DNA of 21,990 nt from Methanobacteriaceae archaeon (GTDB lineage: Archaea > Methanobacteriota > Methanobacteria > Methanobacteriales > Methanobacteriaceae), in contig PWMT01000070.1 in the NCBI GenBank assembly GCA_003558085.1, positions 1 to 21,990 on the forward strand, given 5' to 3'. Positions 1,580-10,500 of the stretch are shown here, piece after piece. Numbering within the stretch: the stretch's first letter is position 1; each line of letters begins with the position of its first letter. Made by a program: the position numbers.

Positions 1580-4500
1580 TTCCCGTCCCCTGCACTTAAA
1601 TCAAATTATATCATTAACTATTCTAATCAAATAGAATTTAAACTATAATACTAATGCCCTTTTATAAAGAATTTTATCAGCATTAATCCACCCTTATTTC
1701 CACTTTCAATTCTTTTTTAGCTTTTAAATCCTCTATTAAATCTGGATTTAAATCACAGGCGGCCTTATCTGCTTTTATCATTAAGGTGCGGCTACAGATA
1801 AACTCACTTTTACGGCAAACTATATCTGTGGGATGATCCAGGCTAAGTTTATGGTGGCCCTGTCCTTTGATTTCATCCCAATTATTATTGGTACTTAAAA
1901 TAACTCTTATTAGCGCATCATCCCTAGATATGGCTGATTTTAATTCCTCTGGAAAATCTAGCATGGTTCTATCAGCTTTAACACCCACGATACAATCTGC
2001 TTGCTTTCCAATTTCTTTATCCCAAGTTATCTCTAAGGTGGTGCGGTGTTGGGAACTAACATGGGGATGGCCCCAGGCTTTTAAGATGTAATTAATCATT
2101 ATAAAACCTCAAAATAAAAATATAATAGGATCTTATCCTTATAGTAGAGTATACTGTAGTTCCTATATGGCCCTTGTAAAAAAAAGCATTTTTTATAGAA
2201 AACGATTAGTTTTAACTGATAAAAGACCGGTATTAATTAAAAAATTACTGTCTCTCTGGTCTTAACGTATAATCTCTGAAAATTTAGGGTTTGTTAATGT
2301 AGAAAAATTGCCATGAATAATATCAATTAACCGTTTGCCTTTAAATCACCCCCATGGTAATGAAAGGCCATATAGAAACTCCACATGTAATATGAGTTTA
2401 TTTTTTTATATAAATCTTACTAAAACTAAAATTTAGATAAAAGTAGCTTATGGGATAAAACTAATTTAAAAACTCAAATAATATCTCTAGGAAATAGTTT
2501 TGCTTATAAAGATATTTTTTTTATCAGAAACATCTTACTATTCCCCATAGATTCTAGATGAATTATATCATTATGAACCTCTTAGTGGAGGATATTGGAT
2601 GATTTAAATGTTTATGATCATTGATGATCTAATTAAAGATATAATAATTTTATAAAAATAGAATGAAATTTGATTTCCAGGATCACTGCTATCCTGGAAA
2701 CTTTAGACCGTTTTAATTTAGATGAAGATTTAATCATCTCTTATTTGCACTTAATAGAAGTTGGTTAGTTACAAGGCTATATGTCTCAAGCATCCTTTTA
2801 GTCCCAGTGAAATTGTATTAAATTCCCCCTACTTCAAAAGAGCCTCTTATCCTAGTTCATTATTTTTGAGGTTTAGCAGTTATTTTGTTTACTTTCCCCG
2901 GCTCGATCCACTTCATTAAAATATTTTAGTTAATGCACGGTTAAAACCGGACATTTAGCACCCCTTACTACTTTCTCCGCCACGCTACCTAAAATGAAAC
3001 GTTCTAAGCGGTGTTTACCTGAGGCACCCATAACTATCATGTCGATATTTTCTTCTTCAGCTGTTTTAAGTATTTGTTGAGAGGCAGAACCTTCTTTAAT
3101 CATATAACTTTTTTCAATTTCAGTGGTAAAGGAGGTATCTTTTTCTAGATCTTTGAAGATTTGGGATATGTTTTCTAAAGCGACATCACTTTCTTTTCTT
3201 AAAACTTCAGTGGTTAAACCAGAAGTAGGTCTGGTTTCCATGACACTTAAAACGTAGATCATGGAATTAAATTTCCTAGCTATAACCAAAGCATGTTTAG
3301 CTGCGTTTTCACTACCTTCAGATCCATCAGTGGTTAATAATATTTTTTCATACATACCAGTTCACCTGATTCTATTAAAATACCAATTTTAATTATTAAT
3401 GTTTTTGTTAAAAGTTATTTATAACTTAAGGGTATTTTATTATTATTCATTTTAATAGGGCATAAATAGTCAGTTCCTCTTTAACAATTGCTTCGCTTGA
3501 ACGTAAGTGTATGGAAGCTAAATTTGGTGCTTTTAATTAATATTGTGGTGTTACTAGTTAGGGCTTATTAGAAGACTGCATGCACAAATCTCATTTTTTA
3601 AAACCCTTAAAAATACTTTAATATTAATTCTATTTTTTTAATCATTTTTATTAGGCTTAACACCTGTTTTTTCCATCATTTTACAGATTTCTTTCATTCT
3701 TTCATTTTTAGGCATCATTTGCATCTTTTTGGAATTATTCATGGTTTCCATCATTTTCTGACACATCTGCCTCAAAACAGACTCATCCATATTCTCCATC
3801 ATCATCATACACATATCCTTCATCATGGAATCCATTTTATCACCCTTTAATTTAGCATTTATTTTATCAAATTTGTTTTTTATCTCCCCATATCCTTTTT
3901 TAACGAATGGACACTCTTCTATACAGAAGGTACATCCTTCACTACAGCCTATAAATTTATCTGCTATTAGATCTATTTCTTTATCTCCACAGCAACCTTC
4001 TTTTTCTAGCAGCGCTTTTTCTGGACAATTTTTGATACATTTAGCACATCGCTGACAGTAATCAGGTATCCAGTTATGTTCATTAACCTTTTTTAGGGGT
4101 AGGTTTGCTATACTAACAAATATGGTGGAAATCTTTACTCTGGAACCTAATTCCGGAGTTATTAAAAGACCATTTTTACCCCTACATCCTAATCCTGCTT
4201 TCTCCGCTAAGGCTGAGAAGTTGACAATGCCACTAAGAGGTGGTAAAACTTCGGTGGCAAAGCCATTTTTTCTAAGATAGTCCGATAGTTTATAAGTTAT
4301 TTTAGTTAATTTTTCATATGCTAAATCATTTAATCTCTGTGCTTCCTCACCAGGAGCGGTTTCAATGATTTCTTTACTCATTTCCATAGTTAGTACCATG
4401 GCATGGGGGTACTGGATAAATTTATCCACAATTAATAGTTCAGGAGTAAGATGTGCATATCCCATACTTTTAATACCAATTGATCGGGCGTAATTTTCAA

Positions 4501-7500: not shown

Positions 7501-10500
7501 AGCGGTGGGGCAAGTATTCATAAATCTACTATCAATAAGCTTATATTTAAATATTTGGATATATTGATTTAAATTAGAAAAAGTTATATTTATACTAATA
7601 TCTACCAGATAAGAACTTATACTAATATCCTGACCAGATAAGACTTCACTCTCTAAATAAGTATTTTACATATAAAAAAAAAATTAAAAATTAGGATTTA
7701 GAATGAAAGGAAGTTATTGTTTAATTATTCATAATAAGAGAGATTCTACCTTAACTATAGGTAAACAAGGAAAAATTGAATTTAAAACCGGCTTCTTTGT
7801 TTATATAGGATCTGCCCTTAATTCACTGGAAGGTAGAATAAAAAGACATATATCCTCCTCCAAGAAAATATTTTGGCATGTGGATTATCTTTTAGCTTCA
7901 CCCCACACCCACCTAAAGGAAGTAATCTATGGGATAAGTCCCCACAAGAGAGAATGTGCTATCTCCCAATTTTTATCCTTAAAAGCTAATAGTATAGCTA
8001 ACTTTGGATCATCTGATTGCCAGTGCCAGTCACATCTATTTTATTTTAAAGAACATGACCTGGCCCAACTAGCTTGCCAGGAATCCTTTAGTAAATTAAA
8101 TTTACACCCAAAATCCTTCAAAATTAGTGAAAATGAGTTTAGTTTTGAAATTTCCTGAAAAACTGGTCAAATTCATCAACCTCCAGCGGTGAAGGTATGC
8201 TAAATTCAGAGTTTTCCCATATGTTCCGGGCAAGTTTACGATAATCTTCAGCTTGATCTGATTCTGGAAATTTCTCCAGGACGGTTTTAGCATCATATTC
8301 GCTTTTTAAAACCAATTCACTTCGGGGTATAACACCAATAACTTTACTACCAATTTTCTGGGCGAACTCTTCTACTATTTCTTCTTCTCTTTCCAACCCT
8401 CGACAATTACAGATTATGCCTCCTAGATTACTCTTTAATTTCTTAATACCTTTAGAAATATTATTAGCAGCGTAAAGGGCCATGTATTCACCAGAAGTGA
8501 CGATGTAAACTTCATCAGCATAATCCTCCCTTAAGGGTACGGCGAAACCTCCGCAAACCACATCGCCAAGTACATCGTATATAATTAGCTCTAAATCATC
8601 CCTAAATATATCAAGCCTTTCCAGAAGACTCATGGCCACGATTACTCCTCGACCAGCACATCCTACACCGGGTTCAGGACCACCACTTTCCACACACATT
8701 ACCCGATTGTAACCTTTAAATACCACGTCCTGGGCCTGGGCTTGTTTATTTTCTTTTAAAATATTCAAAATAGTGGGTAAACGGCCCCCATGAAGGGTGC
8801 GAGTGGTATCAGCCTTAGGGTCGCAGCCAATGACTAGAACCTTATGATGTTCCGTGTAGGCTGCGGCGATATTGGCCACGATAGTGGATTTACCAATACC
8901 GCCCTTACCATAAATGGCTATACTCTTGGTTTTATTCATCAGATTTCACCATAGCACCGATGATATCTCCTCGAGTAATGATACCCAATAATTTATCCTC
9001 CTCATCAACTACCGGCAGCCGGTTAATGTTATGTTTCTCCATTAGTTCAGCTGCATCCGAAATAGACTTCTCTGGAGTGATAGTTTTCACCTGCTTGGTC
9101 ATGATGGATTGCACCTTCTCTACCGCTGCTTTATTTATCCCTGCTGCGATTTCATCAAATTCATACTTCATACGCACTGGTAATTCAATTAAGTCAAAGG
9201 GTGCTGGTAGAATAAGGTTAAGATTAGGGGAGTGCACTTCCAGAAGCCTTATGATATCCCCTTCTGATAATATACCAATCACCTTATTCCCCTCATCCAC
9301 CACCGGTGCTCCGCTAATTTTATGATCTCTTAAAATTTTAGAAGCTTCACTAATTTTATCTGCACCGTTAAAGGTTATTACCTCTTTTTGCATGGCATTT
9401 CGAATTTGTATCAACTAATCAACTCCTTTTTATAAGATTTTAATAATCAAAGAAAAATTTATCTGAAAATATTTATTCTTTTCTTACTTTAATAAGTATA
9501 AACATTTTAATAGTTCCCAGGCTTCCCTTTAAAATATTAAAGTTTAGAGGAGGCTAACTTAAAAGCAGGATTTTTTAAGAGGGAAACCTTCTTTTAACCT
9601 TTTTATAGACTAAATCATGGTTACGAACCCTATCCTCTACCTTTAAACCAATGTTTTCTCCTCGGCTGGCTTTAGAAATAGGGGAACCCTGGATTTGCAT
9701 AGATTCTACTTTTTGGTTTATAGAACCAGTGGTGGGTCCTTGGATGATGATTTCATCATTAAGTTCTAATTGATCCCATAATCTAATCTCCGCGGCCTTC
9801 ACCTGGGGAAAATAATTCACCACTTCACCCACATCCTTTTTAACATATCTAGATTGAGGATGGGTGCTGGTTAAATATGGTTTTTGAAAATAAAAACCCT
9901 GATCAAAACCCCGATTAAATACTTGGCTTAGATCATCTAACCATTCCTCTTTAAAAATCCAATCACCCTTAATATAAGTATCTATGGCTTCTCTATAAAC
10001 CCGGGTTACCTCTCCCACATAATCTGCACCCCGAGCCCTGCCTTCAATTTTAAAGGCATCTACTTGGGCTTCCATCAACTGAGGGATATACTCTATCATG
10101 CACAGGTCCCGTGGACTTATAAAGTGACTTAAATCTTGCTGATCATTATTTAATATTAAAGATTTCCCTTCTTCACTCTCCAATTTCCAGGAATAACGGC
10201 AGGGTTGGATACATTCTCCACAATTAGCATTTTTCTGATAGAGATGATTGCTTAGAAAACAACGTCCAGATATAGCCATGCACTGAGCACCGTGAATGAA
10301 AATTTCTATTTCCAGGGGAGAGTCTTTACTTAAATCTTGGATTTCTCTTAAGGATAATTCTCGAGATAGAATAACCCGCTCCGCCCCTAATTTTTTAAGG
10401 GTGTGCATGGCCTTGCTATTGGAGATATTACCTTGTACTGAAAAATGAGCTTCCAATTGGTTTTCCCGGGCCAGTTCCAGTGCCCCTAAATCTGATACAA

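What a model noticed while it worked through the whole genome (the two positions that open the first line are those of the whole stretch)
3638..7521. Reductive-dehalogenase/QueG-like cobalamin Fe-S protein is a new member of methanogen arsenic-resistance operons
g01063 (368 aa, no Pfam/NCBIfam row) has the RDase/QueG-type core with two Fe-S motifs and lies in an arsR-acr3-usp cluster. Its homologs across Methanobacteriaceae sit next to ars genes and in four genomes are fused to arsenite methyltransferase ArsM, marking an undescribed, probably B12-dependent, arsenic-transforming function.
Evidence so far: Homologs in 55 of 101 genomes. Profile hits PceA-type dehalogenases (E 4e-17) and QueG (2e-9) in PDB, RDH model below cut-off. 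Of 33 relative loci (13 best hits plus 20 spread down the ranking): ArsR-like 29, DGC 23, ArsC 15, ArsM 12, Acr3 11; 25 of 33 have Acr3, ArsC or ArsM within 1.5-3 kb. ArsM fusions: L617, L622 over the NCBIfam cut-off, L634, L636 by BLAST. No paper linking such a gene to ars operons found.
(Added by a program. Inside this text positions count along the whole contig: contig position 1 is position 1 of the stretch shown here. "Call 12" and the like, gene names such as g00115 and contig names such as C1 are that model's own, and its searches are not shown. The text may have been shortened before it was handed on; [...] marks where a part breaks off. The agent that wrote the report below was given it as the finding of a first reader that could run no searches.)

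Follow-up and report, generated by a model that had tools for sequence, protein, structure and literature searches.

The report
B12-type reductase in arsenic regulon
Many hydrogen-using methanogens keep an undescribed relative of the vitamin-B12 dehalogenase enzymes under the control of their arsenic sensor, often fused to the arsenic methylating enzyme, which makes it a testable candidate for the unknown enzyme that turns arsenic into volatile arsines.

Summary
The gene (3638-4744, minus) encodes a soluble reductive-dehalogenase-fold protein. A family model (pLDDT 89) matches PceA/NpRdhA at Z 17-19. The Tyr/Lys proton-donor pair is kept in 120 of 120 close relatives, yet RDH and QueG cut-offs are missed by far. 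The arsenic link is strong: 46 of 50 close-relative loci have arsM, acr3, arsC or arsP within 3 kb, against 0 of 15 for a TetR-linked sister clade. The ArsR operator palindrome precedes 9 of 20 first-in-unit copies, against 2 of 373 unrelated genes. 44 of 143 protein clusters are ArsM fusions; ArsC, ArsR and ferredoxin fusions also occur. The family adds an N-terminal CxC and a Cys aligned with PceA's pocket. It is not just ArsM's helper: many carriers lack arsM, and some lack every known efflux pump. Best guess (0.38): Co(I)-driven reductive cleavage at trivalent arsenic, giving arsines. Rivals are a reductant for ArsC/ArsM, demethylation or methyl transfer. No activity or cobalamin binding is shown. 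The window's copy is atypical: one cluster Cys is Phe (strain-private) and a small downstream ORF is fused on.

The parts
3638..4744 (-). Gene of the RDase-fold corrinoid/2x[4Fe-4S] protein (368 aa, P0001)
   Evidence: family model and fold searches
4586..4594 (-). N-terminal C51-G-C53 motif at the end of an acidic, Cys-pair-rich flexible arm
   Evidence: C51 119/120, C53 120/120; absent from the TetR clade; model pLDDT only 55-69 there
4316..4318 (-). Tyr143 = PceA Tyr246 / NpRdhA Tyr426 (proton donor)
   Evidence: counted from the HMM alignments; 120/120; role from PMC7565698, PMC5500849 passages
4133..4135 (-). Lys204 = NpRdhA Lys488 / PceA Arg305 (dyad partner)
   Evidence: 120/120
4025..4057 (-). 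First Fe-S motif CxxCxxCxxxCP (C230-C240)
3953..3955 (-). Phe264 in place of the first Cys of the second cluster motif; private to this strain or assembly
   Evidence: C in 119/120; C in P0300 of the same cluster
3944..3946 (-). Extra Cys267, aligned with PceA Tyr375/Trp376 at the pocket entrance; candidate arsenic ligand
   Evidence: alignment; 120/120; Trp376 pocket role in PMC5500849; the position in 3D is inferred, not measured
3911..3934 (-). Rest of second Fe-S motif CxxCxxxC(P) (C271-C278)
3638..3835 (-). Met/Cys-rich 65-aa tail, a separate small ORF in relatives, fused here
   Evidence: tblastn to L012, L014, L018, L119, L129; same tail in P0300
5023..5042 (.). ArsR-operator-like palindrome 279 nt before the gene's start codon
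   Evidence: 11.8 bits, 11th of 221 sites over 4 bits in G000; farther from the start than in relatives (38-62 nt)
5170..5595 (-). Universal stress protein 1
   Evidence: PF00582
5647..5868 (-). Decayed ferredoxin gene (several stops), homologous to the 103-aa ferredoxin that relatives keep beside or fused to the RDase-fold gene
   Evidence: tblastn E 1e-16 to 2e-19
5914..7110 (-). acr3 arsenite efflux transporter
   Evidence: TIGR00832 359.4 > 282.8
7177..7521 (-). arsR repressor with ELCACE motif and an N-terminal Cys
   Evidence: NF033788; motif
7539..7566 (.). ArsR operator, two overlapping palindromes before arsR
   Evidence: 12.1 bits, 9th in G000; second site at 7547
2930..3355 (-). Universal stress protein 2, downstream; not at this place in three same-genus relatives
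   Evidence: PF00582

Best explanation
An arsenic-induced, cytoplasmic corrinoid/2x[4Fe-4S] reductase that acts on trivalent arsenic. Steps: (1) As(III) lifts ArsR from its operator (site shown, induction inferred). (2) The acidic Cys-pair arm, C51/C53 and the pocket C267 capture As(III), MAs(III) or DMAs(III), coming from ArsC or ArsM where these are present or fused (inferred). (3) Ferredoxin feeds electrons through the two clusters to make cob(I)amide (inferred from fold and ferredoxin fusions). (4) As in dehalogenases (R-X + 2e + H+ -> R-H + X-), an As-S or As-O bond is cleaved and Tyr143/Lys204 supply the proton. The products are As-H species (AsH3, CH3AsH2, (CH3)2AsH) that leave as gas, or As(0) (hypothesis). 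Confidence that the protein belongs to the arsenic regulon is about 0.88; the figure given is for this chemistry.
For: RDase fold (VIA Z 18.7/18.4/16.9, rmsd 3.2-4.3 A over 234-246 residues; Foldseek E 1e-12). The proton-donor pair is invariant, so a protonating reductive step is expected. The extra Cys sits where PceA has a pocket aromatic. It fuses to both ArsM and ArsC (P0092), which both release trivalent arsenic, and to a ferredoxin. The minimal unit is arsR plus this gene: clade B has arsR at 18 of 19 loci and acr3 or arsM at none. 8 of 16 clade-B genomes lack arsC, arsM and acr3. Twelve genomes with arsC and this gene but no ArsM or Acr3 also show no ArsP or ArsB (0 of 12 each); four of them are 98-99% complete with the close clade. 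Named records show the protein in Methanothermobacter thermautotrophicus, a reported AsH3 former (PMC6882981 passage citing Michalke 2000). The five genus-g29 genomes tested have no ArsM. Cob(I)alamin is reported to favour hydride generation (PMC6950371 passage).
Against: No activity, no cobalamin binding and no As binding are shown. Free cob(I)alamin already explains hydrides as a side reaction, and AsH3 is also reported for an organism in which I did not find or test this family. 9 of the 12 pump-less genomes have an aquaporin-family gene and 6 have a weak SBF/BASS-family transporter, one next to the gene, so As(III) may leave another way. Four of the 12 are under 90% complete or near it. 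The link between the Cys motifs and ars context is not significant on the tree (2 independent pairs on starred branches, p 1). Copies without the extra Cys are still fused to ArsR (L257, L260, L261, L263) or carry the operator (L104). 16 of 56 arsM genomes lack the close clade, and copies are broken in several genomes (G042, G075, G106, G116), so it is dispensable. Reduction to arsine needs up to six electrons at low potential (own knowledge).
Confidence: 0.38

Rival explanations
1. A ferredoxin-driven reductant for the ars pathway: it re-reduces the disulfides of ArsC/ArsM through a C51/C53/C267 relay, or reduces As(V), MAs(V) or DMAs(V) to the trivalent forms that ArsM methylates and Acr3 exports (QueG-like deoxygenation).
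For: 53 of 54 close-clade genomes have an LMWP-type ArsC. arsM is fused or within 800 bp in 23 of 40 genomes with both. The ArsM halves keep all four Cys motifs in 42 of 44 fusions. QueG, a deoxygenating relative, matches at Z 17.1.
Against: 8 of 16 clade-B genomes and 4 clade-D genomes have no ArsC, ArsM or Acr3 to serve. As an As(V) reductase it would duplicate ArsC. Reducing MAs(V) without ArsM or ArsP raises toxicity (own knowledge). arsC is near-universal in these genera anyway.
Confidence: 0.25
2. An anaerobic C-As lyase: Co(I) removes the methyl of MAs or DMAs (to methane or methyl-cobamide), leaving As(III) for Acr3; an oxygen-free counterpart of ArsI.
For: It is formally the dehalogenase reaction with As as leaving group. 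It is directly linked to acr3 at 16 of 50 loci. Methanogens demethylate DMAs by an unknown enzyme (PMC6776024, PMC12478174 passages).
Against: Repeated fusion to ArsM would build a futile cycle. PMC6776024 assigns demethylation to methylotrophic methanogens and their methyltransferases.
Confidence: 0.12
3. A corrinoid methyl carrier for As(III), like HgcAB for mercury, giving SAM-independent or further methylation.
For: Methylcobalamin is described as an As methyl donor in methanogens (PMC6950371 passage). It is fused to ArsM.
Against: The fold is RDase, not CFeSP/HgcA. An invariant proton-donor pair is not needed for methyl transfer. PMC5500849 describes restricted access to cobalt in PceA.
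Confidence: 0.08
4. A member of the ArsR regulon that does not transform arsenic: it repairs As-damaged thiols or corrinoids, handles Sb/Bi or another stressor, or is a passenger of a redox-stress island.
For: In genus g29 all 9 copies keep the Cys motifs at a fixed locus with no ars neighbour. The clusters also hold generic genes (usp, NADH-oxidase-like, DUF166, DUF169). The domain fuses to almost any neighbour. MMACHC/CblC, a cobalamin-processing enzyme, shares the fold (Z 9.7). The ELCxC ArsR motif also occurs in Cd/Pb sensors (own knowledge).
Against: The g29 copies carry an operator-like site (7 of 9 at 8 bits or more vs 0 of 61 other genes there), and those genomes have acr3 and arsC elsewhere (5 of 5). 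The same operator precedes arsM. The sister clade sits in an unrelated context (0 of 15).
Confidence: 0.17

Closest known systems
Reductive dehalogenases PceA (PDB 4UQU, 8Q4H) and catabolic NpRdhA (4RAS, 6ZXU)
   Same: Fold (Z 16.9-18.7), AGLG...GLLITPExGP core, Tyr plus Lys/Arg pair, two ferredoxin-type cluster motifs
   Different: About 250-aa minimal core, about 20% identity, far below TIGR02486. No Tat signal (0 of 120) and no RdhB-like partner. Cys in place of a pocket aromatic, N-terminal CxC and acidic Cys arm. Sits in ars operons.
Epoxyqueuosine reductase QueG (5D08, 5D6S)
   Same: Cobalamin/2x[4Fe-4S] fold (Z 17.1); many databases label the family QueG
   Different: 43.5 vs 200 bits. 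Only the N-terminal 249 residues of QueG align, so its C-terminal part is missing. Has the RDase Tyr/Lys pair. Archaea are not known to make queuosine (own knowledge).
HgcAB mercury methylation pair
   Same: Corrinoid plus 2[4Fe-4S] acting on a toxic element; ArsR- and DGC-linked in some bacteria (bioRxiv 2022.10.17.512643 passages)
   Different: Different corrinoid fold (CFeSP-like), membrane anchor, methyl transfer
Known ars enzymes: ArsC, ArsM, ArsI, ArsH, ArsEFG
   Same: Encoded in ArsR-controlled operons; ArsE/ArsF are Fe-S reductases (recalled, not from a call)
   Different: None has an RDase fold or a corrinoid; no ars-family model matched P0001
MMACHC/CblC
   Same: Nitroreductase-like cobalamin-binding core (Z 9.7)
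   Different: No Fe-S clusters; eukaryotic B12 processing

Membership tests
RDase/QueG superfamily | Nitroreductase-like cobalamin-binding core joined to a 2[4Fe-4S] domain | tested here: met
   Model of family member P0011: Foldseek E 1.3e-12, VIA Z 18.7; profile E 6e-19
RDase/QueG superfamily | Eight cluster cysteines | tested here: met
   119 of 120 relatives; the window's own copy has seven (F264)
RDase/QueG superfamily | Binds a cobamide | not testable with these tools
   Inferred from fold only
Reductive dehalogenase (TIGR02486) | Score over curated cut-off | tested here: not met
   51.6 vs 160.35; 52-67 in 20 relatives
Reductive dehalogenase (TIGR02486) | Tyr plus Lys/Arg catalytic pair | tested here: met
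   Y143/K204 align with Y246/R305 and Y426/K488; 120 of 120
Respiratory RdhA | Tat signal and RdhB anchor | tested here: not met
   0 of 120 with RRxF; one weak small hydrophobic ORF near all close-clade copies scanned
Reductive dehalogenase | Dehalogenation activity | not testable with these tools
   No assay
QueG (TIGR00276) | Score over cut-off and full-length match | tested here: not met
   43.5 vs 200, 72 of 337 positions
ars operon / ArsR regulon gene | Conserved linkage to arsM, acr3, arsC or arsP | tested here: met
   46 of 50 loci; 21 of 22 with wide flanks; sister clade 0 of 15
ars operon / ArsR regulon gene | ArsR operator upstream | tested here: met
   9 of 20 first-in-unit copies (2 are ArsM fusions) vs 2 of 373 unrelated genes at 10 bits or more; the window's site is 279 nt away
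ars operon / ArsR regulon gene | Induced by As(III) and confers resistance | not testable with these tools
   No expression or growth data under arsenic
HgcA-type corrinoid methyltransferase | CFeSP-like corrinoid domain | tested here: inconclusive
   The best matches are RDases; CFeSP/HgcA is not among the listed rows

The most novel reading that the evidence does not exclude
This is a dedicated cobamide enzyme that makes As-H bonds (an arsine-forming reductase). It gives Methanobacteriales a pump-independent route of arsenic detoxification and, fused to ArsM, a one-protein line from arsenite to volatile methylarsines. That would be a new reaction class for the dehalogenase superfamily and the missing enzyme of the 1971 dimethylarsine pathway.
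Probability: 0.3. Interest if true: 0.93.

Novelty: new variant of a known kind. Interest (0 to 1): 0.8.

Why it matters
Methanobacteriales are abundant in paddies, digesters and guts, where arsenic is methylated, demethylated and volatilised by enzymes that are largely unassigned. A widespread ArsR-controlled corrinoid enzyme gives one gene to knock out or purify. It occurs in cultured species (M. formicicum as an ArsM fusion, M. thermautotrophicus and M. marburgensis alone). It would also widen the chemistry of the RDase/QueG superfamily beyond C-halogen and epoxide bonds and correct many QueG and plain ArsM annotations.

Tried and rejected
Complex prediction of the RDase-fold protein with the DGC protein of the same locus gave no answer (score 0.01); it is no evidence either way. 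A tree-aware test of 'Cys motifs go with ars context' had too few independent pairs (2 starred, 5 in all; p 1), although raw counts look strong (68 of 69 vs 6 of 40). The AU test for one origin of the ArsM fusions did not finish; the trees place them in several groups (at least 2 forced by starred branches; scattered), which fits repeated fusion or repeated fission. The idea that the window's copy is decaying because of C264F was weakened: P0300 keeps Cys. The read-laying table did not display that position, so error versus strain variant is open. RNA-library contigs of run X5 cover three pieces of the gene, but its share was small (0.17) and no silent stretch was laid, so this is no evidence of expression. 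The sigma-70 promoter scan was below chance and not suited to archaea. The ESM Atlas added only labels such as 'putative epoxyqueuosine reductase'. G000 has no ArsM over the cut-off. My arsM reference set held two non-ArsM methyltransferases (L115, L117; noticed); they lie over 3 kb from their genes and enter no count. Rows left out of tallies: L010 (duplicate of L071), L059 (split copy, trees and clade-B count), L031 (frameshifted), L090 (no core ORF found). Loci L006-L034 have only 1.5-kb flanks. Literature searches that found no description of such a gene in ars operons: (listings only).
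Full report
OBSERVATION. The window holds, on the minus strand, arsR (7177-7521), acr3 (5914-7110), a decayed ferredoxin gene (5647-5868), usp (5170-5595), a 425-bp gap, the gene in question (3638-4744, 368 aa) and a second usp (2930-3355). The protein passes no family cut-off (RDH 51.6 of 160 bits; QueG 43.5 of 200). Its best solved relatives are PceA, NpRdhA and QueG. G000 (96% complete) has no ArsM over the cut-off. Its arsC lies elsewhere, in a DGC-arsC-DUF166 unit on contig C3.

WHAT THE PROTEIN IS. An AlphaFold model of a canonical member (P0011, 130-sequence alignment) has pLDDT 88.9 and pTM 0.83, with only the first 40-50 residues poorly placed. 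It matches dehalogenases best (VIA Z 18.7 to 8Q4H, 18.4 to 4UQU, 16.9 to 6ZXU), then QueG (17.1) and MMACHC (9.7) (Foldseek agrees). Counting along the profile alignments, Tyr143 equals PceA Tyr246 and NpRdhA Tyr426, and Lys204 equals Arg305 and Lys488. PMC7565698 (passages) names Y426/K488 as the proton-donor dyad. Both residues are kept in 120 of 120 close relatives, as are seven cluster cysteines; the eighth is kept in 119. There is no Tat signal in 120 proteins and no regular RdhB-like neighbour, so the enzyme is cytoplasmic. Two additions mark the family: C51-x-C53 (119 and 120 of 120) at the end of an acidic arm rich in paired cysteines, and Cys267 (120 of 120). Cys267 aligns with PceA Tyr375/Trp376; PMC5500849 (passages) places Trp376 in the ring that guards the cobalt. 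That Cys267 faces the pocket is inferred from a sequence alignment, not from coordinates. 46 of the 120 proteins carry a further C-terminal domain ending in CC, which folds like SCP2 (pLDDT 88; best Z 7.1, the top rows all SCP2-type).

THE WINDOW'S COPY IS ATYPICAL. Cys264 is Phe (one base); P0300 from the same 90% cluster keeps Cys, so this is private to the strain or assembly. His168 (116 of 120) is Pro, shared with the closest relative P0002. The last 65 residues are a Met-rich ORF that is a separate gene downstream in L012, L014, L018, L119 and L129. Three same-genus genomes have arsR-acr3-usp-gene at the same chromosomal place. Runs that hold most of the stretch are labelled salt or soda lake metagenomes (4 rows).

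ARSENIC LINK 1: NEIGHBOURS. I fetched 109 loci from genomes of the family (29 best hits plus 80 chosen down the ranking) and labelled their genes. In the close clade, 46 of 50 distinct loci have arsM, acr3, arsC or arsP within 3 kb (arsR 36, DGC 25, arsC 24, arsM 18, acr3 16, arsP 5; 21 of 22 among loci with wide flanks). About 0.9% of G000 lies that near an ars locus. A sister clade in the same genomes (Arg for Lys204, no extra Cys) sits with tetR, an FMN reductase and a large AMP-binding/reductase gene, and 0 of 15 loci have ars genes. A more distant clade B has arsR at 18 of 19 loci, arsC at 5, and acr3 or arsM at none. Kin are not independent, and a tree-aware test of motif against context was not significant. 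A scan of GTDB genomes returned 79 loci, 77 titled as Methanobacteriota or Euryarchaeota and 2 short contigs in bacterial bins; its patterns favour the close clade.

LINK 2: FUSIONS. Of 143 distinct proteins are ArsM fusions. All 13 scanned pass NCBIfam's ArsM cut-off, and 42 of 44 keep four ArsM Cys motifs. They include proteins named from M. formicicum, M. spitsbergense and M. subterraneum and fall in several parts of the tree. There is also an ArsC fusion (P0092), ArsR fusions (P0127; L060, L068, L095, L096) and ferredoxin fusions. Caution: the genes are adjacent and the long flexible N-terminus tolerates fusion, so fusion does not single out ArsM.

LINK 3: OPERATOR. A palindrome (consensus CGATATATTT-AAATATATCG) learned from arsR upstream regions sits at a fixed distance before arsR. 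Rebuilt from 14 sites without the window or its genus, it scores 10 bits or more just upstream of 9 of 20 close-clade genes that begin a unit (2 are ArsM fusions). It also does so for 7 of 32 arsM/acr3/arsC/arsP genes, but only 2 of 373 unrelated genes; the TetR clade reaches at most 5.6. In G000 the best site precedes the C3 ars unit, the ninth precedes arsR (7539) and the eleventh lies 279 nt before our gene (5023). The motif overlaps a TATA-like core, which the unrelated-gene control addresses. In genus g29 (another family, 9 of 9 genomes) the gene has no ars neighbours, yet 7 of 9 copies have a site of 8.7-12.6 bits at 42-51 nt, against 0 of 61 other genes there.

WHICH PARTNER IS NEEDED. 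Across the same 151 genomes (lists transcribed by hand into), the close clade is in 54. Of these, 53 have arsC, 45 acr3 and 40 arsM; in 23 of those 40, arsM is fused or within 800 bp. 16 arsM genomes lack the close clade. Clade B is in 16 genomes with no arsM or acr3, and 8 of them have no arsC. Twelve genomes with arsC and this gene but neither ArsM nor Acr3 show no ArsP or ArsB. However, 9 have an aquaporin-family gene, 6 a weak SBF-family transporter, and some are incomplete. The smallest recurring unit is therefore arsR plus this gene, often with DGC.

HOW IT MOST LIKELY WORKS. Shown: fold, dyad, cluster motifs, added cysteines, linkage, fusions, operator sites. Inferred: cobamide binding, induction by As(III), arsenic binding by the thiols, electrons from ferredoxin. 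A gene that stands alone under ArsR, fuses to two enzymes that both release trivalent arsenic, and keeps a reductive protonating site is most simply an enzyme acting on trivalent arsenic. Written as the dehalogenase reaction, R2As-X + 2e + H+ gives R2As-H + X-, that is volatile arsines. This fits reports that methanogens form AsH3 and dimethylarsine (PMC6882981, passages and reference list) and that cob(I)alamin favours hydrides (PMC6950371, passages). It also fits the protein's presence in M. thermautotrophicus, with no ArsM in five g29 genomes tested. That M. formicicum makes methylarsines is recalled, not read. I give this 0.38. A reductant role for ArsC/ArsM, or reduction of pentavalent species, gets 0.25. 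No arsenic chemistry (repair, other metalloid, passenger) gets 0.17, demethylation 0.12 (PMC6776024 and PMC12478174, passages), and methyl transfer 0.08. Free cob(I)alamin could explain the hydrides without any enzyme, which is the main reason the best reading stays under one half.

KNOWN AND NOVEL. It works like a soluble dehalogenase but is not a member of RDH or QueG by their cut-offs, and it matches no known Ars enzyme family. Nine literature searches (listings and abstract starts only) found no description of such a gene in ars operons. The library lacks most subscription journals and I read no supplements, where gene tables might list it. bioRxiv 2022.10.17.512643 (passages) shows DGC in an ars operon and raises a corrinoid-arsenic link for HgcAB; PMC10820871 (passages) added nothing. 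An earlier AI note of this scan (e1-4242428) saw the same family, and others saw different corrinoid proteins in ars operons; these are unchecked leads, not support. Verdict: real, well supported as an ArsR-regulon gene, chemistry open; new variant of a known kind; interest 0.8.

Noticed in passing
L075, L076, L078, L079, L084, L086, L087, L092, L094, L097-L099 (about positions 4000-10700): A sister RDase-fold paralogue sits in a conserved cluster tetR - RDase-like - FMN reductase - polysaccharide pyruvyl transferase-like - AMP-binding/NAD-reductase gene (883 aa); function unknown, no ars genes.
   Followed up: partly
L110, L112, L113, L114, L116 (about 4600-6100): In genus g5 the gene is tightly coupled to a DGC gene but has lost the Tyr/Lys pair (Phe/Gly) and the extra Cys; 0 of 13 g5 genomes have arsM, acr3 or arsC.
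   Followed up: partly
L101:4509-4910 and C-termini of L006, L007, L012: An SCP2-like domain ending in paired cysteines, fused to the enzyme in 46 of 120 proteins and a separate gene beside it in other loci; absent from the window.
   Followed up: yes
window 5647-5868 (-): Ferredoxin pseudogene between acr3 and usp; also decayed in same-genus loci L054 and L055.
   Followed up: yes
L294:2163-5231 (G000 contig C3): Second ars unit of this genome: DGC-arsC-DUF166 with a divergent NADH-oxidase-like gene and the best operator site of the genome.
   Followed up: partly
L002:1339-2169 (G000 contig C82): A second, distant QueG/RDase-like gene (276 aa, below the QueG cut-off) with no ars neighbours seen.
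   Followed up: no
G000 C68:38559, C77:1204, C18:37223: Further high-scoring ArsR-operator-like sites (13.7-15.3 bits) whose downstream genes were not looked at.
   Followed up: no
window 8139-8939 (-): NifH-like protein over the cut-off for CfbC, coenzyme F430 biosynthesis; ordinary.
   Followed up: no
window 3638-3835 (-); L012:3067-3246, L014:968-1075: A small Met/Cys-rich protein of no known family that follows the gene in several relatives and is fused to it here.
   Followed up: partly
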